Part shown: one piece after another, positions 19,102-54,383 of the stretch
Position numbering within the stretch: the stretch's first letter is position 1
Layout: every line of letters starts with the position of its first letter
Assembly: GCA_012862495.1 (NCBI GenBank)
Contig: BLSG01000402.1
Location: 606,559 to 670,558, forward strand
Origin: Thraustochytrium aureum
Taxonomy: Eukaryota
Direction: 5' to 3'
DNA length: 64,000 bases
Made by a program: the position numbers and the translations under genes
The notes under the pieces: generated by a model
The model's database searches: none
Told to the model about the DNA's origin: nothing
The model's input: only the letters and a program-made list of their open reading frames with translations

Positions 19102-19389
19102 AATTCTTGTCCAGGGACAACCGCCGGCCGCTGGTGTGCATGTTGAGTGAGCGGTCTTCAACGAAACACGCGCACACCTTGAGTTGACTTTCAAGGAAAC
19201 GAGCGCGCCCACGCCTGCAACGGTCGTGGGTTTGCAGAGTCGCATCATCAACAGTCCAGGCTGCCCGGCAGAACGCCAGGACCACAGAGCGCCAGGGCAG
19301 AGCCTGCCTTCGTGCTGTCGCGCCGCTCTGGACGGCCTGCGCACGCGCTGCTCACCCTGCTCGACGCCTGCCTTCGACCCAGTTCCAGG

Positions 19390-22300
19390 ATGGTGATGTG
19401 GGCCCGAGTCACCGCATGCGCCGTCGTGGCGATCCTAGCGGCTTTGGTGGGGAAGGCGCGTGGCCTACGGTTTAGAGTGGCGAGTAGGAATCGCGCGAGC
19501 AGGCTGCTTCACGCCGGGGACGCGATCGAGGTGACGTGCATATCGTGCCTGGACGGGACGGCCAACCTCACGGGGTGGGACACGTTCGACCAGGCCATCA
19601 CGGTCCTGAATGAGACCGAAACATCATTGGTGCTTCGGGCCGACGATGCCGGGCTCGTGATTGTCCAGGCGGTTGTGGAAGGGGAGAGCGACGCGAGCTC
19701 GAGCAACGTGGCCGTGCTCGCTTTAAGCGAGGCCTCCGCGTCGTGCTACGTGTGGAAAGGCTGCTTGACGCACACTCCAACAAGGAACGCACCCTGCGTT
19801 CGCTCCTGGGGCAACCACTCGAGCCCTGATGCGCGAATATACCTTCGCCTTTGGCTCGGGAAATCCGCCAGGGAGAGCGCCGCTGACGGCGTCTGGGTTG
19901 CCAACTTCGGGGACATCAGCGAGGAGGAGCACTCTCTTACCGATGAACTTTACTCACTCGGAGAGTCTCCCTCAATATCCATTTCGGGCCCCGTGTTTAG
20001 CACGCGGACCGACCCGCCCCTGCTCTTGGTGAACAACAGCAGCAACAGCGGATTCGTGCAAGACGGAAAGTACTGGGTATTTGAGCTGGCGTCGCGGGCG
20101 ATGTTTGACTCCTCAACGATGATTGCTGGCGGGTCAGCGCAGGTGATAGTGCGCGGTAAGGCCGTCAACACAATGGGCTGCTCAGCTGGGGAGTCCAACA
20201 TCATGGTCGACCTTGTCAAGTACGCCCTTGACGCCGTACCGCTCGCTCCTTCGCCTAGCGCGCCGACAGGACAAGCCGAAGTGTCTTTTGACCCGTGCTC
20301 CTCGACTATGTTGGCCCACAGCCCTGGCGCACCAGCCCTTTGGCTCTCCCAGTCTGTCATTGCTGACGCAGAGCTCGCCAACGTGCTTGGGTCTTTCGCA
20401 GACCTTGTACAAATTCTCCCGCTTCCGGGCGGTGAAGCTGTCTATAGCGCGGCACACTCGCGCGAGGGCCTTGTACTGCTGGCCCCAAGCGGGGTCTACC
20501 ACGTCCCGTCGCTCTTCCAGAACGCAGCGTTGCCAGAATCAGGCTTGACGCGTATAGCCGACTCTCCTGCAGGGTTCACCAAGCTCAGCAGCGCGGCTGG
20601 CTGCGACTGGCTCTTGAACCACGACAACAGGACCGGAAACGACATCATCGTAGCCTGGAACCCAAGCTCAGACGGCGCAAACACCATCGCGACAAGTCAA
20701 GACAGCGGGGCATCCTTCGAGCGTCTTGATGTCCGGCCAAACGGCACGGGGTCTGCGTCAAACTTCGAAATCCACCACGCTCTCCCTCTACTCAGCGTTT
20801 CGCAGGTCGTTGTTCTCGCCTCGGACACGGACACTGGACACGACTGCGTCCTGCTCGTTTCCCCGAGCTTGGGTACCTCGACCCGCCTGGCCTCGTTCGG
20901 CCCAGGCGCCAGTCTGCCGGCTCTCGGAGCGTCCAAGGGGCTCGTGTCCCCAGTTGCGCCGAGCGGAGAGCTCCTTGTGTGGGGCGAAACCGCAGTCTAT
21001 TACTCGCCCAGCACCGGCCGCTCGTGGCACAAGATCGAATTCAAGGCTTTCAACCTCACGAAGAAGGAGTTCGTCGAGGTTGAGCTCAGCTCTCCAGACA
21101 CGATTATCACGGTTTACACCTCGCGCAAAGGCGACTTTGCTGTGCTCGCTCGCTCAGGGCGCATCTTTCTGGGCAAGTTGGGCTTGGCCGTGGCATACGA
21201 AACGTACTCCCCACTAGGGGACGCAAACGGTGCGCTTCGGTCGCTGGCTTATCGGCCGGACGGTTCTCTGTTGGCGCTCCTTTTCCATGACGCACCTGGG
21301 GCCAAGCTGCAGTTTTTGCAAGTGCCCGTTCTTGTACGCCAAATTGCCGACGGGTCCCCAGTAGACGTGTCGCCCGCCGGGCGCGAAGCCACCCTCGCTG
21401 CGTGGGTGGCCCCGTTCTTCTGCCCGTTTCTCGACTGGCAGCGCACAATGCCCGACGCGGACTCGTTCTACGCGGACATGAACGACCAAATCGACATTCA
21501 CATGTCGCTCACGCACCCCACACAACTTCAAGGGCAGCACATCTCGTTCCAAACCACAGACCGCGTGCTGATCAGCATGTTGCCGGAGGAAGAGACAGTG
21601 GAGGCCAACTGGGACGGCTCGATCGTGGTGCGCTCGCGACGAGTGCATCTCAGGGTCCCGCCGCAGATCAGCGCCGCCACCGGTGTTGGCAAGCAGCACG
21701 AGGCGTCAGGAACCGTGGTCGTCCGTGCAATACCCACACAGTTTTCGCCCGGCTGTTCAGACCATGCCAAAATGATCCAGATCAAGGTTGGTTGTCCGCG
21801 TGGGCGTCACCTCCGGTACCGTGCCCCGCCCGCCCTTGTCTACCCATCCTCGTCCGTTGTGACTGCAGAGTGCGAGGCTGCGGCGGAGGGCCTCCCGAGC
21901 GCAGAGCGCCAGGAAAGCCTTGCAAAGTGCACGTGCGCCAGGTACCAGGGCGCTCCGCGTTTTGCCCTGCCGAAGGAGACGGTCGACCTGAGCCGAATGC
22001 GGACCTACTACGACGGTCGCCGCGTACCCGCTGCGGTGACGGGGCTGGACGACGAGGAGGCCCTCGCAGTGGAGTTTTCCTTTGACTATGAGGAGTTTGG
22101 ATGCCCGACTTTCGTCCCGTTCACCGACAAGTTCAAGCCCCTTTTGGAGATCTGGGACGGCAACGTCAAGGTCAAGGACGTCGACTCTGACTTTGTGGTT
22201 GTCGAAGCGCACGGTCGAACCGAGATGTCTTTCGGCCTCACTGCGGCGGAGGCGGGCTGCTTGCGCGCCCCACACACGTGGGAGTCCAAACTCGCGGCGG

Positions 22301-22701
22301 ACACTAATTTCTCGAGGTCTTGGAGCTCCGCAAATCACCACCACTGCTTTGTCTCCAACTCGACAAATGCGACGGCGGAAGCGGCTGCGTCGGAGTGGGG
22401 CATGCGCAACTATGAGATTCTGAACGCGACGTCTGGCAACTACATCGCTCTGTCGAGGGATTCGCTGGAGGTCCCGCTGCTGTTTTACGTGACTGTGGTG
22501 GACCCGGACTACAGCTTTTGCGCGCTCTCGACCACCTTTGCCATCGAGCCTTACGGTATGCCGATGGATGCCTGGAGTACGTTTGTGATTATTCTCTACG
22601 TCGTACTGGGGAGCCTCGTGCTGTTGTGGGGCACCTACTTGGTGCACAGGCGCGAGATCTTGGCCGCCGCAGCAAGGGACGAGGCCAAGAAGAGCGACTA
22701 G
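19390..22701 (+). CDS. CATSPERE: CatSper auxiliary subunit epsilon-like (CATSPERD/E family) type I membrane protein
   Basis: Signal peptide; large beta-rich ectodomain; C-terminal motifs VGCP, YEEFGCP, FKPLLEIWDG, FVVVEAHGR, AGC, YEILN, VVDPDYSFCALSTTFAIEPYG then one TM helix and a short tail. This mirrors my recollection of the CATSPERE C-terminal domain (EIHGR..SGC..YEIIN..LDPNYSFC..FAIE). Confidence 0.8.
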   Translation: MVMWARVTACAVVAILAALVGKARGLRFRVASRNRASRLLHAGDAIEVTCISCLDGTANLTGWDTFDQAITVLNETETSLVLRADDAGLVIVQAVVEGESDASSSNVAVLALSEASASCYVWKGCLTHTPTRNAPCVRSWGNHSSPDARIYLRLWLGKSARESAADGVWVANFGDISEEEHSLTDELYSLGESPSISISGPVFSTRTDPPLLLVNNSSNSGFVQDGKYWVFELASRAMFDSSTMIAGGSAQVIVRGKAVNTMGCSAGESNIMVDLVKYALDAVPLAPSPSAPTGQAEVSFDPCSSTMLAHSPGAPALWLSQSVIADAELANVLGSFADLVQILPLPGGEAVYSAAHSREGLVLLAPSGVYHVPSLFQNAALPESGLTRIADSPAGFTKLSSAAGCDWLLNHDNRTGNDIIVAWNPSSDGANTIATSQDSGASFERLDVRPNGTGSASNFEIHHALPLLSVSQVVVLASDTDTGHDCVLLVSPSLGTSTRLASFGPGASLPALGASKGLVSPVAPSGELLVWGETAVYYSPSTGRSWHKIEFKAFNLTKKEFVEVELSSPDTIITVYTSRKGDFAVLARSGRIFLGKLGLAVAYETYSPLGDANGALRSLAYRPDGSLLALLFHDAPGAKLQFLQVPVLVRQIADGSPVDVSPAGREATLAAWVAPFFCPFLDWQRTMPDADSFYADMNDQIDIHMSLTHPTQLQGQHISFQTTDRVLISMLPEEETVEANWDGSIVVRSRRVHLRVPPQISAATGVGKQHEASGTVVVRAIPTQFSPGCSDHAKMIQIKVGCPRGRHLRYRAPPALVYPSSSVVTAECEAAAEGLPSAERQESLAKCTCARYQGAPRFALPKETVDLSRMRTYYDGRRVPAAVTGLDDEEALAVEFSFDYEEFGCPTFVPFTDKFKPLLEIWDGNVKVKDVDSDFVVVEAHGRTEMSFGLTAAEAGCLRAPHTWESKLAADTNFSRSWSSANHHHCFVSNSTNATAEAAASEWGMRNYEILNATSGNYIALSRDSLEVPLLFYVTVVDPDYSFCALSTTFAIEPYGMPMDAWSTFVIILYVVLGSLVLLWGTYLVHRREILAAAARDEAKKSD

Positions 22702-43228: not shown

Positions 43229-45094
43229 TCACTCAGGCTTGCTGTCGCTCTGCGGGTCGTTGCCCTCCTCGCTGTCGGCATTGGAGGCGGTGCCAGCTTC
43301 GGCCTCGAGAGCCGCCACCGCGCCTTCTCTGTACTCGTCGATACTTATGCCGACCTTAGCAGGCACGGATGCGGCCTCGGCGATCGCAAGGACCGCTTCC
43401 TTCGCTTTTTCTGGGTTGTGCTGGGCCGCCCCAATGACCTCTTGGACCCAGCCCACCTCCACAACCTTCTTGCCCTCGTCCTTGCCAGCTTCTGGGCCGA
43501 GCACCTTGACGGTTCGAAACGTTATTTTCGCCACCGTCCGCCGGAGGAACGCCCGTGCCACCGACCGACGCACCTTCGCGCCAAACTTCGGGAGCTCCTT
43601 TTGCAAGGCAGCAGAGATTTTGCCCGACTCGAGCGCTTCAACGACAAGGTCAAGGAAACGAGCGACGCTTTCCGGATCCTTCTTGGAGCGCGCGGTGTCG
43701 CACAAGCGCCTCTCCGCCTCAAGGAGAACTGTGAAGACCCAACTCAAGTCCTCGCCCTCACTGGTCTCGCGCTCAATACGCACTTGCTCCTCTCTGATTG
43801 CGGGGAGGGCGTCTTGTGGCTTGCTTTCCCGCACCAAAACTGACGCTCTATTTGCTGTTCCAGCGACACTTTCGCGGTTCCGGGCATCTCGAACCCTCGG
43901 GTTTATCGGGGGGGGTTCATCGAGAGATGCGTCTCGGACACGGTCAACGCGTATTTGAACGTGGCACAGCTCGCTGCGGGCACTTCCCGTACGGTCTGTC
44001 TCGAGCAGAATGTCGAGCACGTGCACATCACTTTGCACTCCAGTTGGATTGGGTTGAACGAGGAACTTGACCGTGAACGACTTGGACTCCGACACGCCCA
44101 TGAGCGGAGCCTTCCAAGCTCGCTGGCTCGGGGTGGACTCCTTCAGAAGCGGTTGGAAGGTTCGAGCTAGCTTCTTGCTCAGCTTGATCTCGTCCACGGG
44201 GACGAACCCGGCTGCGGAGTCGGGCACCCGTACAACGAAGCGCGTCTGCGCGTCGCTCGGCGTTTCGGTCACGGCCTTGAGGTCGCCAAAGAGCTCGTCC
44301 TCGTCCGGCGAGTACCTATGTCCTGAAGAAGCGTCCGTCAGCTGCGTGAAGTAATCTTGGATCTCTGTGGTTGGCGCGATTGGAACAAACCCAAATTCGG
44401 GTGAGGGGACCACGTCGAAATCCTCGTATTTTGCTGCAGCAGTGTCCAGTTCGCGCAAGGTCCCATCTGGATCGTTGACCTCACCATCTGTTACGAGGTA
44501 GATTTGGAGGTGAGAGAGCCACCTCTTTGCGTTGCGCTCACGAGCGGCTTCGTCGATTTCGCCTGAGAGGGTGGTGCAGGCTTTGGCCACCTCGCCACTC
44601 AATCGCTCCTCCAGGAGCTTGATCTGCTCAAAGGCCTCTGTGAGACCAGCGATGGCGTCGGTGCTTCCTTCAGCCACGAGACCATCAACGTAGCCCTGGA
44701 GCTGCTGGAGGTTTCCAGGCGTGACGATCTCGAACCCGAAACGCAGAACGGCTTCCTCGGCGAATGCGACGAGACAGACATAGCAGTCTACTGCCTCGTC
44801 TGCAGCCGCTCTGGCGAGCCAGTCGCGCAAAAATTCTTTGGTTCCTTCGATCCTAGGGATCAAGATCTCGTTGCCTGCATCGTCCACCCGGCCACTTGGG
44901 GCCTTAACTTCAGTCATGCTCCAGCTGCAGTCGACCACCCACATGACGGCACGCCGAGGCTTTGGGGCTGGCTGGCGAAACTTGCCCGCTTCGATGGTGA
45001 TGGCCACTTCAATTTCATCGGGGCCAACCGCGCAGGCTCCGTTCCACTCTGCCTCGATCTTGAACAGGTCGTGGCCGTCCACCGCACGCACCAT
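43229..45094 (-). CDS. vWA-domain protein (paralog 1)
   Basis: MIDAS VVDCSWSM, GSTDAIAG, LVTDGE; followed by a beta-rich segment and a helical C-terminus. Confidence 0.85.
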   Translation of the reverse strand: MVRAVDGHDLFKIEAEWNGACAVGPDEIEVAITIEAGKFRQPAPKPRRAVMWVVDCSWSMTEVKAPSGRVDDAGNEILIPRIEGTKEFLRDWLARAAADEAVDCYVCLVAFAEEAVLRFGFEIVTPGNLQQLQGYVDGLVAEGSTDAIAGLTEAFEQIKLLEERLSGEVAKACTTLSGEIDEAARERNAKRWLSHLQIYLVTDGEVNDPDGTLRELDTAAAKYEDFDVVPSPEFGFVPIAPTTEIQDYFTQLTDASSGHRYSPDEDELFGDLKAVTETPSDAQTRFVVRVPDSAAGFVPVDEIKLSKKLARTFQPLLKESTPSQRAWKAPLMGVSESKSFTVKFLVQPNPTGVQSDVHVLDILLETDRTGSARSELCHVQIRVDRVRDASLDEPPPINPRVRDARNRESVAGTANRASVLVRESKPQDALPAIREEQVRIERETSEGEDLSWVFTVLLEAERRLCDTARSKKDPESVARFLDLVVEALESGKISAALQKELPKFGAKVRRSVARAFLRRTVAKITFRTVKVLGPEAGKDEGKKVVEVGWVQEVIGAAQHNPEKAKEAVLAIAEAASVPAKVGISIDEYREGAVAALEAEAGTASNADSEEGNDPQSDSKPE

Positions 45095-45850
45095 TTTCCC
45101 AGCGTCCTTGGCTTTTTCCAGCTATCGCGCGCCTGGCTCCGTCTTCTCGTCCAAGCTGTGGGTGTTCTTCCAGACCGACCTGTGGTCTTTTGGGGTCTGT
45201 TGCTACTCGTCGCGGAGCCGCTCGGCGCTTCACGCCAAGGTCGCACGACACGACTCGGAGGGCACAAGACCGACGACTGCCCGAATCCGCCCTGCGAGGG
45301 TGTGTGCTGCAATTGTGTCGGAGGGAGGAGGGTGGATCGCCTCGCAGCGCAACACGCCAATCCTCACCGGCTGGCGGGGTTGCGTCACTGGCAACTAGAG
45401 TACTTACTCGGTCGCCTCAGCGGCGCAAGTGCGGGTTGCCACGCGCGTTGCGCAAGCCCTGATGAGTGGAGAACAGCTCCGATCTCCTCCCGATCCGTGT
45501 CACTGGCTGGCTGCCTCATGAACAACCCAACCGGGCTGGGTTGCGCCAGAGGCTCTCCTGGCTCCCGTACTAGTAGTTGAAAGGAGGAGAAGGCAAGGGT
45601 GCGCGGGAGAAGCGCATGATTTGGGAGGGTGTGCGCGTCGGTCGAACACTGGCAACCAATCGGTCACGTGCCGCCTTGAGGAGGCCTGCTCAGGGAGAAT
45701 TGAGCTGCATCTCAGGCTGAGGCGGCAGGCAAGAGAATTGGCAGGCAGGATGAGAACTCATCAGTCGCGTTAGTAGTTCTTTAGGAGAGACTCATCAGGC
45801 AGAGGCGGCCTCCGCCGCGCCCTCCCTGCAGCTGCGGGCGGCGCTTGTAG

Positions 45851-47764
45851 CTAGGCGGGCTCGCCCCCGCCCAGTCCTTCGTCGTGGGCGTCCTCGGCCT
45901 CCGACTCTGCAGGGTCTGGAGCGCTCTGCGCTGCGTCCGCCTCCCCGTCCGCAAACTTGGCGATCTCTTCCTTCACCGCAGGAAAGATCGAAACGTCTTC
46001 TTCAATCAGCTCAACCAGCTTGTCCTTTGCGTGGCCAGGCCTGTGTCTGGCCGCTCCGCCCACCTCGTGAACCCACCCCGGCGAGACACGCTTTGTACTT
46101 TCCTCGCTTCCCGCGTCCTTTCCAGAGCCCTTGCCCTTGCCTTTGCCCGCCCCCTGCTGGAAGAATTGTTTGGCGGGGTCGGTAACCAGCCGCTTGAGCC
46201 ACGCCCGTGCAACGGATCGCCGCATTGTCGCTCCAACCTTTGGCAGTTCCTCCTGAAGCGAGGCTGAGACCTTGCCCGACTCTAGCGCTTCGACCACAAG
46301 GTCAAGAAACCGGGCGACGGCCTCGGCGTCTCGCTTGGAGCGCACGGTATCGCGCAGACGCCTCTCCGCCTCTACGAGAACGTTGAAAACCCAGCTCAGG
46401 GCCTTGCCTTCTTCAGTCTCGCCCTCGATGCGCTCTTGCTCGGCTCGGATGTCACCCATAGCTTCGACCACCCTCTCGTTGTTTTGGCTTCTGACCTTCT
46501 TCGATGCTTCGGACGCCGTGCCCGCGACCTTTTCGTGGTCTTCGATCTCTTTGACGTCGGGGTTCACAGCTGCAGGCTCATCAAGGACGCGATCGAGGAG
46601 GATTTGCACTCTGCACTCGTCACTTCGACCAAACCCCGAACGATCAGTCTCAAGAACGATGTCGAGAACGTGCACATTCCTCTGCTTGCCAGTTGGACTG
46701 GCATTCAGAACGAGCTTGATCGTGAACGCTTTGGTTTCAGAGATGCTCATTCGAGGGACTGCCCACCCTCGCTGGCTCGACGTGGACGCGTTTTGCAGCG
46801 GTTTGAAAGTTCGGGCTCGGCTCCTGTTCAGGCATATCTTTTCCACAGGGACGACTTGAGATTCTCCGTCGGGCACTCTGAGAATAAGGCGAACCCCTAA
46901 GTCAGTTGAAGCGATTGGAACCTCCTTGAGATCACCGAAAACGCGCTTGCCACCTGGCAAGTGCACTTGCCCATGGCATGCTTTGGCCATTCTCCGAAAC
47001 GTGTCTTTCATCTGCTCCATTTCTGGGGTTGTCGAGTCGATCGGATGGAACGGAACGAAACGAATGTCAAGGTGCTGGATCACTTTGAAGTCCTTGAACC
47101 TTGCAGGGGCACTCGCCAGTTTGGCTGTGGTTTCGGCTTCATCGTGGAGCAAGCCGTCGGTGACGAGGTAGAGACAAAGGTCTGCGAGACGGGTATTTGT
47201 GAGGCGACTGCAAGTGCTGTCGTCAATCACTCCGGGGCCCGAATCAGTGGCTCTGGCGCTGACCACCTCACCAAGTAGCTGTTCCTCCAAGAGCTCAATC
47301 TGCTCGAAGGCCTTGGAAATGCCTGGACAAGCGTACGTTTGGTCGTCTGCTTCCAAGTTTTCCACCTGAGTCTTTAGACCCTCGAGCGTCTCACTGGAAA
47401 GGACCGTAAATCCGAAACGGAGCTTCGCTACGGTGGAAAACGAGATCAAGCTCACGTAAAAGTCTGTTGACTTGTCTGCAGCCTTTTCGGTGAGCCAGTC
47501 CTTCACGAAAAGCTTGGCCTTGGCGATTCTAGAAGTCATAATAATGTTGCCCTGCTTGTCCGGGCTCTTGAGGTCACGCTCAGCCATGCTCCCGCTAACG
47601 TCAACGAGCCAAACCACGGCACGCCGAGGCTTCGGGGCGGGTTGGCGGTACTTGCCGGCTTCGATCGTAACAGCCACTTCGATCTCATCCGGGCCGTCCA
47701 GGCACTTTCTGTTCCACTTCGCCTCAAGTTTGAACAGGTCGTTGCCACTCACTGCCCTCGCCAT
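45851..47764 (-). CDS. vWA-domain protein (paralog 2, tandem duplicate of paralog 1)
   Basis: MIDAS LVDVSGSM, LVTDG; shared blocks GPDEIEVA.TIEAGK.RQPAPKPRRAV, HVLDI.LETDR, LSWVF.VL.EAERRL, VARFLDLVVEALESGK. Confidence 0.87.
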   Translation of the reverse strand: MARAVSGNDLFKLEAKWNRKCLDGPDEIEVAVTIEAGKYRQPAPKPRRAVVWLVDVSGSMAERDLKSPDKQGNIIMTSRIAKAKLFVKDWLTEKAADKSTDFYVSLISFSTVAKLRFGFTVLSSETLEGLKTQVENLEADDQTYACPGISKAFEQIELLEEQLLGEVVSARATDSGPGVIDDSTCSRLTNTRLADLCLYLVTDGLLHDEAETTAKLASAPARFKDFKVIQHLDIRFVPFHPIDSTTPEMEQMKDTFRRMAKACHGQVHLPGGKRVFGDLKEVPIASTDLGVRLILRVPDGESQVVPVEKICLNRSRARTFKPLQNASTSSQRGWAVPRMSISETKAFTIKLVLNASPTGKQRNVHVLDIVLETDRSGFGRSDECRVQILLDRVLDEPAAVNPDVKEIEDHEKVAGTASEASKKVRSQNNERVVEAMGDIRAEQERIEGETEEGKALSWVFNVLVEAERRLRDTVRSKRDAEAVARFLDLVVEALESGKVSASLQEELPKVGATMRRSVARAWLKRLVTDPAKQFFQQGAGKGKGKGSGKDAGSEESTKRVSPGWVHEVGGAARHRPGHAKDKLVELIEEDVSIFPAVKEEIAKFADGEADAAQSAPDPAESEAEDAHDEGLGGGEPA

Positions 47765-48606
47765 CGTGTCTCGCTTGTTGCGTCCTGCTTGCTCTACCCT
47801 GCTGGCTTTGCCGTGCTCTGCTCGCCCAGCTCTGCTTGGCAGCGCTGTGAACGTCTCCTCCGTTCTGGATCTGCCTGAATGGGTGCAGCAAGGACGTCAG
47901 ATTCTTCGGTTGCTTCCAGTCAGAGGCACGAATGGTGCCTCTAGAGCTAGCAGCAAGGAGGATCTAGCACAGGATCCTCTGGCAGCGTCGAAAATCGCTG
48001 ATGAGCGGACTTGCCTTTCCGCCAGTCGGGCCTGTCTTCGCAAATCTTTGCTAAAGCGCATGGGCCGCAAGCAGAGTCTCATCATAATTCACATCACAGG
48101 GAATCCTTGCCCAGTGCAGCTCCCCCCGGGCCTCACGAGCCCACGTGCCGGTGTGCAAGCTCACTTTGGACGACAGCAAGAGAAGGACCGCCTCGTGAGC
48201 CCGACCGGCATTCCACCGGTTGTCGCCGACGGTTGTTGGTGATGACGAACATCATTCATCATGATGTGAATGGCGAGAGTGAGCGTTTGCCGACGGACGG
48301 CGGCGCGTGACCACAAATCATCACAACATGCAGCACGTGAACGGCGTGACGTCGGCACGTGAACTGAAGCCGAGCAGGCGCTCCGCTCCGATTCGCCCTA
48401 CCATTCCTTCGCACTCGCGTGTGCACTCGGGGTGTGCATGCGCAGGGGTGTGCGACTACAAGAGCGCATGAACGAGCGCCCGTGATGATGATCGAGTACG
48501 GTGGATCCGCCTTACCGGACGCGGCATCGCGCCGGCGTGTGGAGAGCCAAGGCAAGCAAGGCAGCACCAAGGCAGCAGAGGCAATCAGCAGAAGGAGCTC
48601 GGGAGT

Positions 48607-49602
48607 ATGGGCGAAGAAGCGCTGAGGCTCGAGGTTGGTGACGCCGTGGGCGTGTGGAACGACGTGGCCGGGTTTGAGGATGCCAAAGTCGTGCGGATTG
48701 GGCCTGGCGACGGCCAACTCGTTGTCAAGGCAAAGCGCGGAGGCGGGAACAGGAGACTCGACCTGGCTGTGCGCGCCGACAGGGACTGCGTCGATTGGGC
48801 TGGCGTGACCGCGGCTCAGCCACTCTCGACGGCGGGCGCTGCCTGGACAAAGGTTCTCGGACTGGTCAGCAGCGCGCTGGCCTATCTGCGGCTCTGGCTC
48901 ATCAAAGAGCAGCGCAAAGTGGTATTTGCCAACGCCCGCACTCGTGCGCCGGCGTATATGGACGTTCTCGACATGTCGGAGCCGTACGTGCACGCTACGA
49001 AAACAGACGCGCCAAGTACTCCAGAGCCTGAGACGAGCGGTCCAGACGTCAGCGATTCAGAAGATGACGAGAGCGGCGCGGAGTTTGGCGTCGAGTCGGG
49101 CGAGGTGGAACTCGAGACCCGGTATGACGCGGCGCGTCAGCTTGCTGCGGCTTCTCCCGCCCTGCGCACGGAGGGCGCCAGATTTAGCGCACCTGCAGTC
49201 ATCCCCACGCCGCCCGAAAGGGGCTGGCGCTGGCGGCCAGCGGAGGTCCGGTTTGACCTGATCAGCGACGACGGCCGCGAACTTATCCACTGCAGGTACT
49301 TGGACGAGGCAGGTGGCGAGACTGCACTTCATGTCGATGAGGCGAACCGGCTCGCAAAGTACCAGTCCAAGTCGCGGCCCGGCCAGCGCCAGCATGCGCT
49401 TGCCACAGAATCCGTGGTTTCGGTGCGGTGGTTTCGAGCTGCGGAGGGCAAACTCTGGTCTGGCTGGGCGCCCGGCGCAGTGCTCGCAGCGACTGATTAC
49501 TTTTGCTTTGTCGAGGCCATTATTGAGGGCTTTGGCGATGGCCCGACCGTCCAGCGAACCTGGCTCCATGTTCTGGAGGATGCAGATAGACTCAACTACT
49601 AG
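48607..49602 (+). CDS. Hypothetical protein with putative Tudor/Agenet (SH3-like) repeats
   Basis: LEVGDAVGVW..FEDAKVVRI, WRPAEV...IHCRYLD, VSVRW...WAPGAVL resemble Tudor-like beta barrels. Confidence 0.55.
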   Translation: MGEEALRLEVGDAVGVWNDVAGFEDAKVVRIGPGDGQLVVKAKRGGGNRRLDLAVRADRDCVDWAGVTAAQPLSTAGAAWTKVLGLVSSALAYLRLWLIKEQRKVVFANARTRAPAYMDVLDMSEPYVHATKTDAPSTPEPETSGPDVSDSEDDESGAEFGVESGEVELETRYDAARQLAAASPALRTEGARFSAPAVIPTPPERGWRWRPAEVRFDLISDDGRELIHCRYLDEAGGETALHVDEANRLAKYQSKSRPGQRQHALATESVVSVRWFRAAEGKLWSGWAPGAVLAATDYFCFVEAIIEGFGDGPTVQRTWLHVLEDADRLNY

Positions 49603-49732: not shown

Positions 49733-51724
49733 TTAGAAAGGCCAGAGGTTCTTGAACAGGCCGCCGAAAATGCCACTGGCGGGTTCTTCGTCTGTGTCGC
49801 TTGTCCCATCGCCTCCAGAGCCCTCCACCCTGTCCGGCGACCCAAGGCTTTGCGTCGAAGCCGCTCTTTCGGCATGGGCGGGCTGTGAGCTCATGCTGGT
49901 CGAAGTCCTCCGACCCGACGAAACGCGTCGAATGACTGCACTGGCCACGTTGCCAACAGTTGACCGTCGTCTGGGTGCGCCCACTGATGCATTTCTCAGG
50001 GCGTTGTCGGAGAGACGTCGCTCCCCAGACGACTCCTCTTGCTCAGAATCAGCCTCCAGAACTCTCGCCATCTCGAACTCCTCAATCCTCCTCCGGACGT
50101 TGACCTCTCTCATGGCCTCTTGGATCTCTTTCTGCTTTTCAAGAAGGATCACGCGGAGTCGCGCTTTTGTCCCCGGATCCGCTTTGAACGAGCCGTCTTC
50201 AATCGCGACGAGCAGGTTGGCGATGAACTCGCTCGTTGAGGTACCGAAGGACATGGCTACCACAGACAAAGTGGTCATGGTTGCTACTCCGTGCAGCAGT
50301 GTATACGCGACATCGCGCAGAGCGATGTCCAACTTTTGAAGCCATAGCTCTGTATCGCCCCCCTGCACGGCAGCAGCTTGGACAGTTCTCACCAACTTCT
50401 GAACCTCCTTCAGCTGGAGGATTGCTGCTTTCTTGCAAAATGGCTTGCCCACTAGGCGCCTTTTCATAGTCCCCTCGACGACCTCGGCGACCTCGGCGAT
50501 CGCTCGCACAGCATGCTCTCGGCGGGAGCTGTTGTCGTCATGCGGTTCACGGACGATCAGTTCCTTTCGCAGCGCTGTGATCTTTCTGGCGGCAACAAAG
50601 CGCGTGTCGTGAGCCTCGGCCTTGTTGTGCAGGATGTGATCTCTGTCGGTTTCTACTGGGCTTTTGGTGCGCGGAACGCTCAAAACGCGTCTCTGGGGGA
50701 GTCGGCCAGGAATGCCGCCGCTGTACTCGAACGTGACCAGGTCCTGTCGCTTGGCAGCTCCTGGTTGGACGATGAGTGGCAGGGTGAACGTCAACTCCTT
50801 GCTTGCAGAGAAATTTCCCCAGGTGTACTTGAAAACACGACCTTTTTCGATCTCCTCCGGGTGAAAGCCGCAAGCAAAATCTTTCGGTCTCGGCGAAAAC
50901 CTTTTCGACTCTGCATCGATGGTTACGCCCTCTGCGGCGGTCACGGTCATGATGATCGGCTTGATGTCCAACGCCTCTCTGCTTTGCTCCCAAGCGAGGG
51001 CAAGTGCCAACGATGCCATGCCGACCTGGTCGTCAGCATCCAGCAAGTCAGTTGGGCAAGTAGGGTCTCCGCTTTTGGCAATCTCCGTCGCGAGAGTCTC
51101 AAGCGCCTCTGTATCGGCTTCCTCCCCGATGGCAAGAACCCAGAGTGTGGGGCAGTGCGCGAGCTCCGCATTGTCGGAGCGCTCAGAAATCATGTCGTTG
51201 ACTTTGTCGGCTAGCTCGGCCATGTTCCTCTCCCCGCGATTCACGTAGCCGTCACAGGCCAGGAAAATCGCCGGGTTCGGCCAGGACTCTTGCAGCTTGG
51301 TCAGCTCCTCGATGGCCAACGTGAGGCCAGCTTCGACGTTCGTGACTCCTGAGCAAGGGAGCGAGTGCGGGTTCTGGAGGACCTCCTTCCATCGTTGCTT
51401 GTTTTGACTGGTTGCGTGCTCGAAAGGGATGACCACGGAAGCGCTGGTGCTAAATCGGATCAGTGAAAAGCGGTCGCCTTCAGTCATGCAGTCCAAGAAA
51501 GAGGCCATGGCTTGCACCATGCTGGTGATTCGGGTCGCCGTCCCGTCGACCATACCAGCCATACTTCCGCTTGTGTCGAGCACGACGCAAAAGTCGGTGC
51601 CCTTCGACGCGTACTCGGCAACCTCTTTTGACACTTTCATCGTGCCGACGACTCTGATTTCCTCTTCGTCGCACGAAATCGTCCCTCGCGACAGCAGTGG
51701 TTGGACCTGCACGGGGAGCTCCAT
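49733..51724 (-). CDS. vWA-domain protein (paralog 3, divergent)
   Basis: DFCVVLDTSGSM, DRFSLIRFST, GVTNVEAGL, IFLACDGYVNRG, LAIG. Confidence 0.87.
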   Translation of the reverse strand: MELPVQVQPLLSRGTISCDEEEIRVVGTMKVSKEVAEYASKGTDFCVVLDTSGSMAGMVDGTATRITSMVQAMASFLDCMTEGDRFSLIRFSTSASVVIPFEHATSQNKQRWKEVLQNPHSLPCSGVTNVEAGLTLAIEELTKLQESWPNPAIFLACDGYVNRGERNMAELADKVNDMISERSDNAELAHCPTLWVLAIGEEADTEALETLATEIAKSGDPTCPTDLLDADDQVGMASLALALAWEQSREALDIKPIIMTVTAAEGVTIDAESKRFSPRPKDFACGFHPEEIEKGRVFKYTWGNFSASKELTFTLPLIVQPGAAKRQDLVTFEYSGGIPGRLPQRRVLSVPRTKSPVETDRDHILHNKAEAHDTRFVAARKITALRKELIVREPHDDNSSRREHAVRAIAEVAEVVEGTMKRRLVGKPFCKKAAILQLKEVQKLVRTVQAAAVQGGDTELWLQKLDIALRDVAYTLLHGVATMTTLSVVAMSFGTSTSEFIANLLVAIEDGSFKADPGTKARLRVILLEKQKEIQEAMREVNVRRRIEEFEMARVLEADSEQEESSGERRLSDNALRNASVGAPRRRSTVGNVASAVIRRVSSGRRTSTSMSSQPAHAERAASTQSLGSPDRVEGSGGDGTSDTDEEPASGIFGGLFKNLWPF

Positions 51725-51749
51725 CTCGCTGTGTCCAGAGGTTTGCTCG

Positions 51750-51933
51750 GCTTGCTGGTGCTGCTGGCGTATGTTGGTGCTGCTGGTGCTGCTGGCGTAT
51801 GTTGGTGCTGCTGGTGCTGCTGGCGTATGTTGGTGCTACTAGAGCTGCTAGTGCTGCTGGTGCTGCTAGAGCTGCTGGTGCTGCTGGTGCTGCTAGTGCT
51901 GCTGGTAGACTGCTGGTGCTGCTTGCACTGCTG
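51750..51933. repeat. CTG/GTG-based compound repeat (GCTGCTGGT; GCTGCTGGCGTATGTTGGT) immediately upstream of vWA paralog 3
   Basis: Direct reading. Confidence 0.9.
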
Positions 51934-52454
51934 GAGCTCGAATCCTTTCGGGAACTGCATGGCAACGTCTGGCTGGGCGTCGGTGCCACGCGGTCCGGTA
52001 GTATTCACATGAGCTCTTCGTGTCTTCTCAAGTGAAATCAAGATGAAAGCAAGGAAGGAACGACTCGGAGTAGGTAAAAGTTGCGCTTGTTCAAGCAAAA
52101 AGGTAGGTACTAGTAGGGAGTACTCTACCGGTCCTCTGCCGGCCGCGCACCGGTCGTGAGGGCATTCGCCTTTCCTCAGAACAGAAAACGGTGTGCGACA
52201 GATCCAGACTCTGCTGATGTGAGAGCGCAACCCAGGCCAGTGATCATGATGGATGACGCACGACCGACAAGCCGCCGCCTCGTCGTGGCCTTCGTGGCGA
52301 GAGCCGCGTGTGGCTCGTTCTCGACAGAACCCAAGGGTGACGGGCAAACCGAGTAAGCGACCAGCCGCCGAGCGGCTCGTGGCAGGACCTGGGTGGCGTG
52401 GGGACGCGCGCCTGCGTTTCAAGGCGTCAGAGCAGCGGGCTCGGCACGGTTGAG

Positions 52455-54383
52455 ATGGCCGAGTCTGTTGTGGCACTGATAAAGGCGGCAAAGGATCTGC
52501 GAGCCACGGCGAAGAAGGCCAAGAACCTTGGGGACGAAGCGAAGGACATCGTTGACACGGTCGAGGCAGTGATAGAGAACCTCGAGCTGATTCCACCCGG
52601 CCCGCTGAGCGAGAAAAATGGACAGTACATCCGCCAGCTCAGCGGAATGGTCAGCAGTTTGGAAAGCGCGTTTGCAGCAATGTCGAAGAGCAAGCTGGAC
52701 CTGCTCTGGGCAATGATAATGTTCAAGCGCAACAAGCGCAAGGTCCGACAACTAAACGAGAAGCTCATGAGAATGATGCTGATGATTCTGGTGGACGCCA
52801 GTATCAAGCCAAGCGATAGGCTTGAGAGGTTGGAGTCGTCATCGGGAGACCTTGCGGACGGCGATCAAGACGAGGAGGACGACGCAGAGGTTCTTACCTC
52901 GCTTCGCAGCATCTGTACGAGGGATTCGTCGCTGCTGTCTTACTCAGAAGAAACCGTCATTGGCACTTCTTCCGCTGCGCGCGTCGTGCGGGGTGTCTTT
53001 GTAGAGTCTGACGTTGCTGTCAAGATCATCCACATCAGTGGTGAGAAGAGCTCGCTGGAGGAGGAGCTGGAGGTCTTTCGTGCTGTTGCCGAGTGGAGGC
53101 ACTTTCACAACGAGTTCATGGCCCTCTGCCACGGCGTTGTCTCGCTTGGCGATCGCCATTCCGTCGCTGTCGTCGTTGACCTGGCTTCCTTTTCCCTGGC
53201 GGATTGCATCGGCACAGCACCAAGACAGAGCCTTAGTGACAACGAGATCCGTGCGGTCCTCGTAGACGCTGTGCGTGGGCTTGTCTTTCTGCACAGGGAG
53301 AAGCAGGCACATGGGCACTTGAAGCCGAACAATATCCTCGTCAAGGCCGGGCTTGGCCACCCCCGCGGGCTGCTGACGGACATCGGGATTAACAGCTCTC
53401 CGCATGACGCGCTTTACAGCCCTCCAGAGGCAGACATCTCGATCAAATCGGACATCTTCTCGCTCGGTGTGATCATTTTGGCGTGGCTTGCGCGTTCCGA
53501 CTTGTTTCCAAATCGTAGCGAGACAGATATCCGGAAGGCAATCGAGGGTGGCGAGCTTCCTACGCCCCATCCGAACGCTCCAAAACGACTCGTCGACCTT
53601 GCTCGGAGGTGCTGCGCCCTCAACCCTCTCGATCGCCCTCCAGTAGAAACCGTTCGAGTGACCTTGGCTTTGCCACTGCGGGAGCTCCCTCGAAGGCGTT
53701 CGTCTGGGCACACTGAGAGCTCGGATCAGCCGGCGCCTTTGCCGGAACCATCGGTTCCCCAACGACAAAGGCCCAAAACGATTCTCTGTTTGCTTATTGG
53801 CGACAAGGCAGCTTTGCTTCGAGAGCAACTCTATGCCAGTCTACAGGATCGCCCCCAACCACGCGAGACCGAACCGGCTTTGCTAGCTGGCACCGGTCGG
53901 TTCCAACAAACGGAAATCAAGGTCGAGGTTGAAGGCCACACTGCGCGAGTCCGAATCCGCTGCGTGCGGGCCGAGTGGGACGGAAAGGATGCACAAGCTT
54001 TGGGCAGGCTCACTGGAACCAGAGACAGGCCTCCAGCAACGGCCATCATTTCCTACAACACATCCGACGAGGCAAAAGCGTGGGCTGCCCGGGCTGCCCG
54101 CGCGATTCGCAACGAGCATCCGCGTACAATCATCACTCTCGTTGGCTCCGCTGACGAAGCCGAAGCCGGCGGCGAGGACGAGATCGATCGCGTCACGGCA
54201 GAGCTTGGCATTCTCTCGAACGTCTTTGATGGGTCACGAAGCGTCACTAACGCGATTCTGCACGAGGCTGTACTCCACACTCTGACCGAAGCGCAAGACA
54301 ACGACCCCAGCGCGGGGCCTCGATCGTCGCTGCGTCGATCGCTTGGGCGGCTTGCTGGGCGCATTTCTGGACAGCGCAGCTGA
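52455..54383 (+). CDS. MLKL-like protein: N-terminal helical bundle + pseudokinase + degenerate Ras/Rho-like domain
   Basis: About 120-aa amphipathic helical N-terminus; kinase fold with VAVK, GLVFLH, HGHLKPNNILV (no catalytic Asp), TDIG, YSPPE, SDIFSLG, CC..NP.DRP; C-terminal ILCLLIGD, VEVEG, IITLVG. Confidence 0.75.
   Translation: MAESVVALIKAAKDLRATAKKAKNLGDEAKDIVDTVEAVIENLELIPPGPLSEKNGQYIRQLSGMVSSLESAFAAMSKSKLDLLWAMIMFKRNKRKVRQLNEKLMRMMLMILVDASIKPSDRLERLESSSGDLADGDQDEEDDAEVLTSLRSICTRDSSLLSYSEETVIGTSSAARVVRGVFVESDVAVKIIHISGEKSSLEEELEVFRAVAEWRHFHNEFMALCHGVVSLGDRHSVAVVVDLASFSLADCIGTAPRQSLSDNEIRAVLVDAVRGLVFLHREKQAHGHLKPNNILVKAGLGHPRGLLTDIGINSSPHDALYSPPEADISIKSDIFSLGVIILAWLARSDLFPNRSETDIRKAIEGGELPTPHPNAPKRLVDLARRCCALNPLDRPPVETVRVTLALPLRELPRRRSSGHTESSDQPAPLPEPSVPQRQRPKTILCLLIGDKAALLREQLYASLQDRPQPRETEPALLAGTGRFQQTEIKVEVEGHTARVRIRCVRAEWDGKDAQALGRLTGTRDRPPATAIISYNTSDEAKAWAARAARAIRNEHPRTIITLVGSADEAEAGGEDEIDRVTAELGILSNVFDGSRSVTNAILHEAVLHTLTEAQDNDPSAGPRSSLRRSLGRLAGRISGQRS

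What the first reader, a model, noticed from the sequence alone, without database searches (positions are those of the whole stretch)
52455..54383. MLKL-like death-effector architecture in a protist: helical bundle + pseudokinase + pseudo-GTPase
Seen in sequence: a ~120-aa N-terminus of amphipathic helices (MAESVVALIKAAKDLRATAKKAKNLGDEAKDIVDTVEAVIENLE...KVRQLNEKL), then a kinase fold (~52955-53670). The kinase keeps the VAVK lysine but has HGH for HRD, DIG for DFG, no Gly-rich loop and a very short activation segment. Established knowledge: animal MLKL is a four-helix membrane-permeabilising bundle fused to a pseudokinase whose catalytic loop reads HG-K/N, and related HeLo/RPW8-type bundles execute cell death in fungi and plants. 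Inference: this is an MLKL-like executioner in a probable stramenopile with an extra C-terminal domain. I know of no described protein with this tripartite layout.
Basis: partly seen in the sequence, partly recalled or inferred. Interest (0 to 1): 0.88.

Follow-up and report, generated by a model that had tools for sequence, protein, structure and literature searches.

The report
Protist MLKL-like protein with dead GTPase
A single-celled eukaryote has one unbroken gene that joins a helical bundle related to the animal cell-death protein MLKL, a kinase that has lost its catalytic residue and a variable third domain predicted to be a disabled small GTPase, which likely makes a self-contained defence switch that would damage membranes when its bait domain is triggered.

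Summary
In detail: one unbroken 642-aa ORF with three domains. The N-terminal bundle is a distant MLKL/HeLo relative. It misses Pfam's cut-off, but an independent profile of 13 bacterial MLKL_N domains ranks it first of 584 sequences (0 of 4000 shuffles as high), and MLKL is the top structural match. The kinase lacks the catalytic Asp but keeps the lysine and metal-binding residues, unlike MLKL; its 'HG' is common in related kinases and is no MLKL signature. The C-terminal domain is probably a pseudo-GTPase: 45 of 47 Foldseek rows are Ras-family and all G motifs are degraded, but the model is poor and sequence tests are weak. Public contigs show a second version about 6% diverged in the 3' half against 0.5% in the 5' half. 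No orthologue was found; killing is untested; the lineage is not proven. Bundle-kinase fusions are known and recur, also in stramenopiles. Ten paper searches found no such three-part layout, but this scan noted similar layouts on other DNA (peat moss; fungal HeLo-Rho fusions; unchecked). Verdict: new variant of a known kind, likely a decoy-controlled death or defence switch.

The parts
52455..54383 (+). Whole gene: single ORF, 642 aa, bundle - linker - pseudokinase - Pro-rich linker - GTPase-like domain - basic tail
   Evidence: no joints in contigs of three runs
52455..52796 (+). MLKL/HeLo-type four-helix bundle (residues 1-114); helix 1 amphipathic, not transmembrane-like; helix 4 carries 9 Lys/Arg
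52797..52919 (+). Acidic linker (11 Asp/Glu in residues 117-143) between two short predicted helices (121-127, 142-153); possible brace equivalent
   Evidence: (pLDDT 30-43 here, low); the Pfam MLKL_N match runs to residue 144
52941..53663 (+). Pseudokinase domain (residues 163-403): VAVK Lys190 kept, Gly-rich loop degraded, catalytic Asp replaced by His288, Asn293 and Asp309 kept, short activation segment
53310..53333 (+). Catalytic loop HGHLKPNN (residues 286-293)
   Evidence: read from the sequence
53664..53774 (+). Pro/Ser-rich linker (residues 404-440); a second version differs at 6 listed codons by amino-acid change and has a 9-base in-frame insertion
53775..54302 (+). Probable Ras-fold pseudo-GTPase (residues 441-616): strand/helix order of a small GTPase, no GxxxxGK[ST], WDGKD at the G3 position, GSAD at the G4 position; polymorphic
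   Evidence: sequence-profile support weak
54312..54380 (+). Basic C-terminal tail (6 Lys/Arg, no acidic residue, predicted helix 625-639), no CaaX box; possible membrane-binding tail (inferred)

Best explanation
The gene encodes an MLKL-related four-helix bundle, a kinase domain without its catalytic aspartate and a predicted disabled small-GTPase domain, and likely works as an all-in-one defence switch in which the GTPase-like domain would act as bait and the released bundle would damage membranes. Steps: (1) at rest the acidic linker and the pseudokinase would hold the basic bundle shut (inferred from MLKL and from the charge pattern); (2) the pseudokinase probably still binds ATP-Mg but transfers no phosphate, and serves as a conformational switch (inferred from kept Lys190, Asn293, Asp309 and the lost catalytic Asp); (3) the nucleotide-free GTPase-like domain would be bound or modified by proteins of intracellular parasites that aim at host Rab/Rho GTPases (inferred from the fold and from the polymorphism concentrated in the 3' half); (4) this would release the bundle, which would cluster on acidic lipids through helices 1 and 4 and permeabilise the membrane (inferred by analogy). 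My odds per element: bundle is MLKL/HeLo-related 0.9; kinase catalytically dead or nearly so 0.85; third domain has the Ras fold 0.7; bundle is lytic 0.55; decoy trigger 0.4.
For: Bundle: top Foldseek hit is MLKL 4btf (E 4.4e-4, next 1.7e-2); VIA ranks 4btf first of 48,161 chains (Z 11.6, rmsd 1.8, 97 residues) and human MLKL NTD second, with Rx-CC, NRG1.1, Sw-5b and AtMLKL3 also in the top 11. A profile from 13 bacterial MLKL_N domains, built without the query, ranks this ORF first of 584 (E 1.6e-4); 20.1 bits against maxima of 11.7 and 12.6 in 2000 residue and 2000 block shuffles; hhalign 0 of 250 shuffles. Those 13 plus the query find MLKL in the PDB at E 1.7e-13. Three Pfam families of the HeLo/MLKL group (MLKL_N over 134 residues, SesA, PigL_N) hit weakly, while 0 of 28 helical control chunks of the window hit any of them. 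Pseudokinase: motifs. GTPase fold: 45 of 47 listed Foldseek rows are Ras-superfamily entries, best E 3.1e-4; the G3-beta4 segment fits best at the expected register. Variation: a second version differs at 23 of 387 bases in the GTPase-like domain against 4 of 868 in the 5' half, without stops; three amino-acid changes fall in the switch-II-equivalent stretch 511-518, and residue 511 has three states; 4 of 4 listed changes in residues 1-123 are silent. Precedent for killing by the bundle of an MLKL-kinase: R3AK (10.64898/2026.08.07.743466, abstract and Discussion) and AtMLKL (10.1101/681015, passages).
Against: No function was tested. Both models are single-sequence and low in confidence (mean pLDDT 40.8 and 45.3). 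The bundle's Z of 11.6 is under the tool's caution level of about 13 for helical bundles, and Cbl's four-helix domain scores 10.6. Pfam MLKL_N gives 13.2 bits against a cut-off of 27; 1 of 28 control chunks hit Rx_N over 31 residues. The GTPase call has best VIA Z 5.6-6.1 with rmsd 4-5, background level, and ties with STAS and other alpha/beta folds. A profile of 107 small GTPases scores the domain 0.0 bits (23 and 66 of 2000 shuffles as high), hhalign is matched by 40 of 250 shuffles, pairwise alignment to one Rho-like domain is not significant, and the G4 segment fits best at residue 436, not at the expected 550. pN/pS of the second version is 0.48, so no positive selection is shown; divergence also covers part of the kinase C-lobe (8 of 190 bases) and the second version may be a paralogue. 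Helix 1 is less hydrophobic (mean 0.22) than in all 13 bacterial bundles (0.29-1.50). In Pm13 the bundle alone does not kill (PMC11297308, passages). No orthologue was found, so conservation of any residue could not be tested.
Confidence: 0.42

Rival explanations
1. Non-lytic signalling scaffold: the bundle is an autoinhibitory or protein-binding module, and the two dead enzyme domains dock partners (kinases, GEFs, GAPs) in ordinary membrane-trafficking or cytoskeletal signalling, as the pseudo-GTPase domains of p190RhoGAP do.
For: Pm13's MLKL_NTD does not kill and probably restrains the kinase (PMC11297308, passages); AtMLKL immunity can be separated from cell death (10.1101/681015, abstract and passages); the Cbl adaptor bundle scores within 1.0 Z of MLKL; known pseudo-GTPases act as scaffolds (PMC5593906 and PMC10211241, passages); helix 1 is only mildly hydrophobic.
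Against: The sequence profile ties the bundle to MLKL_N, at the extreme N-terminus where lytic bundles sit; the lack of any orthologue and the divergent second version fit fast-evolving defence genes better than housekeeping scaffolds.
Confidence: 0.28
2. Helper executioner: the bundle kills, but the trigger is a separate sensor or upstream kinase that phosphorylates the short activation segment (Ser314, Ser315, Tyr321, Ser322 are available), as RIPK3 does for MLKL; the C-terminal domain only localises or scaffolds the protein.
For: This is how animal MLKL works (PMC12881547, passages) and how wheat R3AK is paired with an NLR sensor; the activation segment holds Ser/Tyr residues; a basic tail could target membranes.
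Against: No kinase or NLR gene was seen next to it among the 8 neighbouring ORFs scanned, though the rest of the genome is not held; the variation is concentrated in the 3' half, as expected if sensing sits there.
Confidence: 0.2
3. Decaying or neutral remnant: an old fusion whose enzyme domains are eroding without a present function, or whose third domain is some other alpha/beta fold.
For: Both enzyme-like domains have lost key motifs; no orthologue; pN/pS 0.48 shows relaxed constraint; the GTPase assignment is weak by sequence.
Against: The 642-codon frame is intact in the window, the listed variants include no stop and the one insertion keeps the frame; 4 of 4 listed changes in residues 1-123 are silent, where about 0.23 of random changes would be; the kinase C-lobe core motifs are kept.
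Confidence: 0.1

Closest known systems
Vertebrate MLKL (mouse 4BTF, human N-terminal domain 6UX8)
   Same: N-terminal four-helix bundle, linker helices, then a pseudokinase that keeps the beta-3 lysine and lacks the catalytic Asp; top structural match.
   Different: Keeps the metal-binding Asn and Asp (MLKL's HRD and DFG motifs are both non-canonical and it binds ATP only without cations; PMC4718504, passages); has an acidic insert in the linker, a shortened activation segment and an extra C-terminal GTPase-like domain; common ancestry of the kinase domains not shown.
Plant MLKLs and MLKL-kinase fusions (AtMLKL1-3, wheat Pm13/MLKL-K, R3AK)
   Same: Bundle-brace-kinase layout that arose several times by fusion (PMC11297308 passages; 10.64898/2026.08.07.743466 Discussion); AtMLKL3 is among the structural matches.
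   Different: AtMLKLs end in a serine-rich region with no known fold; Pm13 has a putatively active kinase and does not kill through the bundle; none is described with a GTPase-like domain in the passages read.
MLKL_N-kinase proteins in databases: P0098 and L003-L017 (Coxiellaceae MAG and genomes of its order), P0122 (Ectocarpus sp.), P0008 (chytrid Polyrhizophydium)
   Same: MLKL_N-type bundle before a TKL-type kinase, sometimes degenerate and sometimes with a third domain (Sel1 repeats in P0098).
   Different: 11-16% identity in the bundle; most keep the catalytic Asp; none of the 62 hits scanned with Pfam combines MLKL_N, kinase and a Ras domain.
Pseudo-GTPase domains (p190RhoGAP pG1/pG2, CENP-M)
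   Same: Small-GTPase fold predicted with all G motifs degraded, the definition given in PMC5593906 (passages).
   Different: Those are scaffolds in GAP or kinetochore proteins, with solved structures and binding assays; here the fold is only predicted and is joined to a death-type bundle.
Fungal HeLo/HELL executioners (HET-S, HELLP)
   Same: Same bundle superfamily; weak SesA and PigL_N (PF17111) hits (PMC9815663, passages).
   Different: They rely on an N-terminal helix with transmembrane propensity and on amyloid signalling motifs; helix 1 here is amphipathic and charged, and the regulators are fused enzyme-like domains.

Membership tests
MLKL / MLKL_N (PF22215) | N-terminal four-helix bundle with the MLKL fold | tested here: met
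   Four helices predicted; MLKL ranks first in Foldseek and VIA. Caveat: pLDDT about 50-75 and Z 11.6, under the tool's caution level for bundles.
MLKL / MLKL_N (PF22215) | Score above Pfam's curated cut-off (27 bits) | tested here: not met
   13.2 bits, E 0.065, residues 11-144 on profile 7-141 of 142.
MLKL / MLKL_N (PF22215) | Remote sequence homology to bona fide MLKL_N domains beyond chance | tested here: met
   Independent 13-sequence profile: first of 584, 0 of 2000 and 0 of 2000 shuffles; 0 of 250; pairwise global Z 4.7-5.8 to P0098; 0 of 28 helical controls hit these families.
MLKL / MLKL_N (PF22215) | Brace helices between bundle and pseudokinase | tested here: inconclusive
   Two short helices (121-127, 142-153) split by an acidic stretch, pLDDT 30-43.
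MLKL / MLKL_N (PF22215) | Pseudokinase: catalytic Asp of HRD lost, beta-3 Lys kept | tested here: met
   HGH at 286-288, VAVK at 187-190.
MLKL / MLKL_N (PF22215) | Non-canonical DFG motif (loss of cation binding) as in vertebrate MLKL | tested here: not met
   Asp309 of DIG and Asn293 are kept; MLKL's state from PMC4718504 (passages).
MLKL / MLKL_N (PF22215) | Kinase domain of common descent with other MLKL-type kinases | tested here: inconclusive
   No supported placement in trees of 65 and 30 rows; AU tests reject none of three placements (p 0.27, 0.40, 0.37). Vertebrate MLKL itself was not in the trees.
MLKL / MLKL_N (PF22215) | Activation by phosphorylation and membrane permeabilisation by the bundle | not testable with these tools
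   Needs bench assays.
Pseudo-GTPases of the Ras superfamily | Small-GTPase fold | tested here: inconclusive
   For: element order, 45 of 47 Foldseek rows, G3 register. Against: TM 0.33-0.41, VIA Z at most 6.1, profile scores near chance.
Pseudo-GTPases of the Ras superfamily | One or more of the G1-G5 motifs degraded | tested here: met
   No GxxxxGK[ST], no DxxG and no [NT]KxD at the aligned positions.
Pseudo-GTPases of the Ras superfamily | No nucleotide binding or hydrolysis | not testable with these tools
   Needs binding assays.
Roco proteins (Roc-COR) | COR domain directly after the GTPase domain | tested here: not met
   The protein ends about 26 residues after the GTPase-like domain.
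Fungal HeLo/HELL executioners | N-terminal helix with transmembrane-level hydrophobicity | tested here: not met
   Mean hydropathy 0.22 for residues 1-21, with 5 Lys/Arg; best 19-residue window in the N-terminal part 1.08.
Fungal HeLo/HELL executioners | Amyloid signalling motif | not tested
   No motif scan was run.

The most novel reading that the evidence does not exclude
A stramenopile-type protist has built a one-gene necroptosis-like trap: a dead small GTPase serves as an integrated decoy for parasite proteins that hijack Rab/Rho GTPases, a pseudokinase relays the signal, and an MLKL-type bundle kills the cell. With the moss and fungal fusions noted elsewhere in this scan, 'death bundle guarded by a GTPase decoy' would be a recurring, undescribed class of immune receptor across eukaryotes.
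Probability: 0.25. Interest if true: 0.88.

Novelty: new variant of a known kind. Interest (0 to 1): 0.64.

Why it matters
A survey of 67 protists found no homologues of necroptosis regulators and took the pathway to be vertebrate-specific (PMC7539657, passages); comparative reviews treat MLKL-type death in animals, plants and fungi (PMC12881547, PMC9950082, passages). A bundle-pseudokinase protein in a unicellular eukaryote extends that layout to protists and gives a short, intronless gene with which to test lytic defence there. If the third domain is a GTPase decoy, it would show how a cell can guard its small GTPases, common targets of intracellular parasites, with a single protein.

Tried and rejected
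Homologue searches found no orthologue: word-index search of the whole protein (0 of 7988 candidates scored) and of residues 1-160 (0 of 1157); phmmer over 1.84 billion representatives gave 1240 hits, and the best stretch of nearly all 150 listed lies in the kinase domain, none covering the bundle or the whole third domain; metagenome and viral scans confirmed none of 434 and 24 stretches; scans with alignment A1 could not run. The exact sequence is in neither the protein collection nor the ESM Atlas. No whole genome is held, so paralogues, an upstream kinase and the lineage could not be checked. No RNA holder listed: the three runs that hold the stretch are only guessed to be RNA and come from one study. 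Homo-tetramer prediction of residues 1-155: no verdict (score 0.17, mark 0.32). Sequence searches of the PDB with the bundle alone (0 hits at E 10) and the third domain alone (3 unrelated weak hits), NCBIfam and the viral fold library (no match at E 0.001) added nothing. A word search with P0098's bundle returned only itself. Kinase trees did not place the query. Rejected: HGH as an MLKL signature; Roco membership (no COR); the weak Mur_ligase_C hit (E 0.04-0.15, 65 residues) as the identity of the third domain; positive selection (pN/pS 0.48). Correction: one search merged two different contigs at codon 511; one search separates them. Rows dropped: loci L005 (stop inside the match) and L011 (partial) were left out of the bundle profile, L014 was not recovered by the script, and genome G023 was not scored by the tool; 21 variant rows were not shown, so the 8 differences in the kinase C-lobe were not classified; 62 of the 150 kinase hits were scanned with Pfam. 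A paper search for CatSper in thraustochytrids did not list the paper I recalled.
Full report
1. The gene. Window 52455-54383 (+) translates without a stop into 642 residues, from the first Met of a frame that opens at 52341. It lies head-to-head with a vWA-domain gene and tail-to-tail with an eIF2B-family gene. Contigs of three public runs of one study cover nearly all of it without a joint. The window is eukaryotic and intron-poor (eIF2B, SAC3/GANP, CATSPERD/E domains). I could not prove the lineage because no genome is held. That CatSper genes were reported from a thraustochytrid is recalled and was not found; an unchecked note on another piece of this genome also says 'likely a thraustochytrid'.

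2. The N-terminal bundle. A single-sequence model predicts four helices at 2-21, 23-43, 53-76 and 80-114, the best-modelled part (block pLDDT 50-75). Foldseek's only hit at E 0.001 or better is mouse MLKL (4btf, E 4.4e-4). VIA ranks 4btf first of 48,161 chains (Z 11.6, rmsd 1.8, 97 residues), human MLKL NTD second (10.8), Cbl third (10.6), and 6 of the top 11 rows are MLKL or NLR N-terminal domains; the tool warns that helical bundles under Z 13 can be generic. Pfam gives sub-threshold hits to MLKL_N (13.2 bits, nearly the whole profile), SesA and PigL_N; 0 of 28 helix-rich control chunks of the window hit these families and 1 of 28 hit Rx_N over 31 residues. For an independent test I took P0098, a kinase hit with a clear MLKL_N domain (E 1.7e-16) from a Coxiellaceae MAG, found the domain in 10 of 63 scored genomes of that order, and built a profile from 13 of the 16 matches. 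It ranks the query first among 584 sequences (E 1.6e-4), aligns profile positions 2-110 with one gap, and no shuffle of 2000 (max 11.7 bits) or block shuffle of 2000 (max 12.6) reaches its 20.1 bits; hhalign agrees (0 of 250). These 13 with the query find MLKL in the PDB at E 1.7e-13. The bundle is therefore very likely a remote member of the MLKL/HeLo superfamily. Helix 1 is amphipathic, not transmembrane-like; helix 4 has 9 Lys/Arg; an acidic linker with 11 Asp/Glu follows.

3. The kinase. Pfam Pkinase matches 163-399 (E 7.7e-16). Lys190, Asn293 and Asp309 are kept, the catalytic Asp is His288, the Gly-rich loop keeps one glycine, and the activation segment is 17 residues against a median of 27. 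By the usual definition (PMC4718504, passages) this is a pseudokinase; weak residual activity is not excluded, since ErbB3 is listed as retaining some (PMC5593906, passages). It differs from MLKL, whose DFG motif is also non-canonical. Trees of 65 and 30 rows left the query unplaced, and AU tests rejected no placement; vertebrate MLKL was not in them.

4. The third domain. Residues 441-616 have the strand and helix order of a small GTPase in both models (mean pLDDT 45 for the domain alone). In Foldseek 45 of 47 listed rows are Ras-superfamily entries by my reading of their titles (best: Naegleria Rac, E 3.1e-4; TM 0.33-0.41). VIA gives best Z 5.6 in the wide search, with about 19 of 50 rows small GTPases and ties to other alpha/beta folds, and 6.1 on Foldseek's own list: background level. 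Sequence tests are weak: a profile of 107 small GTPases scores 0.0 bits (23 and 66 of 2000 shuffles as high), hhalign is matched by 40 of 250 shuffles, though it sets WDGKD and LVGSAD against the G3 and G4 regions. An ungapped G3-beta4 profile fits best at exactly the expected register (20 of 1000 shuffles and 2 of 155 window chunks as high), but the G4 profile fits best at the domain's first strand instead. No G1, G3 or G4 consensus is intact. I put the Ras fold at about 0.7.

5. Variation. In runs X1 and X2 two contigs of similar depth cover each of three stretches in the 3' half, one close to the window and one differing at 8 of 190 (kinase C-lobe), 13 of 224 and 10 of 170 bases; the 5' half is a single contig with 1 of 701 (X1) or 4 of 868 (X2) differences. 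For the GTPase-like domain this is 23 of 387 bases (5.9%) against 0.5% (Fisher p 5e-9), with the caveat that the more divergent contig was chosen and that assemblers merge small differences. There are no stops among the listed changes, a 9-base insertion in the linker keeps the frame, pN/pS is 0.48, and residue 511 in the switch-II-equivalent stretch has three states. All 4 listed changes in residues 1-123 are silent. This fits a constrained effector end and a variable sensor end, but does not show positive selection, rests on one study, and cannot tell allele from paralogue.

6. Mechanism. Most likely an all-in-one switch: closed bundle, pseudokinase relay, GTPase-like bait, membrane damage on release (0.42). 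Shown: the domain order, the motif losses, the bundle's homology, the variation. Predicted: the GTPase fold. Inferred: autoinhibition, decoy sensing, killing. Rivals: non-lytic scaffold (0.28), helper executioner switched on by a separate kinase or sensor (0.2), decaying remnant (0.1).

7. What is known. Bundle-kinase fusions are in print for animals and plants and arose repeatedly: AtMLKLs (10.1101/681015, passages), Pm13, whose bundle does not kill (PMC11297308, passages), and R3AK, whose bundle does (10.64898/2026.08.07.743466, abstract and Discussion). The HeLo/Goodbye/MLKL superfamily is described for fungi (PMC9815663, PMC12881547, PMC10197012, passages). In databases the layout reaches stramenopiles: Ectocarpus P0122 has a bundle (10.0 bits, 0 of 1000 shuffles; hhalign weaker, 5 of 60) before an intact kinase, and its nearest Atlas clusters include MLKL_N-bearing ones whose commonest phylum is Oomycota (score 0.91, MLKL_N on 10-22% of members). 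GTPase-kinase fusions also exist (P0023; 10.64898/2026.04.11.717937, passages). Ten searches of the held library (listings and abstract starts) showed no paper on a bundle-pseudokinase-pseudoGTPase protein or on an MLKL-like protein of a labyrinthulomycete; subscription papers are largely missing and I read no supplements, where domain tables could list such proteins. Also seen as passages only: PMC7539657, PMC10211241, PMC11218826, PMC10583209, PMC9950082, PMC3019232. Earlier notes of this scan, unchecked by me, report a peat-moss gene with bundle, active kinase and dead GTPase, fungal HeLo-Rho1 and bundle-dead-G-alpha fusions, and a protist Roc-COR-MLKL protein. They make the layout less unique and more interesting as a recurring design.

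8. Verdict. Real feature; works probably like an MLKL-type effector; not a proven MLKL orthologue; new variant of a known kind. Interest 0.64: all three domains have support and the combination was not found in print, but it is a single gene without orthologues, the GTPase call is moderate and function is untested.

Noticed in passing
window 43229-45121, 45851-47896, 49733-51835 (all - strand): Three tandem vWA-domain genes; the nearest lies head-to-head with the MLKL-like gene. Kinase-vWA fusions act in wheat immunity (PMC11297308, passages), so a functional link is possible but untested.
   Followed up: no
window 51760-51930: A short tandem repeat region upstream of the vWA frame; an upstream Met lies in another frame and contigs show loose ends here, so the start of that gene may be mis-assembled or variable.
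   Followed up: no
window 19183-22701 (+): A 1172-codon frame with a CATSPERD/E C-terminal domain (E 3.6e-32): a CatSper-channel auxiliary subunit in a protist.
   Followed up: partly
L002-L017 (genomes G001, G019, G020, G042, G043, G045-G048, G052): MLKL_N domains occur in 10 of 63 scored genomes of the order of a Coxiellaceae MAG; 10 of the 13 used are fused to TKL-type kinases, most with the catalytic Asp, two without. I did not search the literature for this specifically.
   Followed up: partly
proteins P0008 (chytrid, 2405 aa) and P0009 (2961 aa): Multi-kinase proteins that carry MLKL_N-like bundles between kinase domains, missed by Pfam.
   Followed up: partly
proteins P0024, P0026, P0031, P0033, P0039, P0040, P0046 and kin: A well-supported clade of 24 rows among the hits, many with HGx in the catalytic loop and no DFG; one is named 'TonB family protein' by its source. 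Apparently a bacterial pseudokinase family.
   Followed up: no
window 48472-49602 (+): An open frame of 376 codons between two vWA genes with no Pfam match.
   Followed up: no
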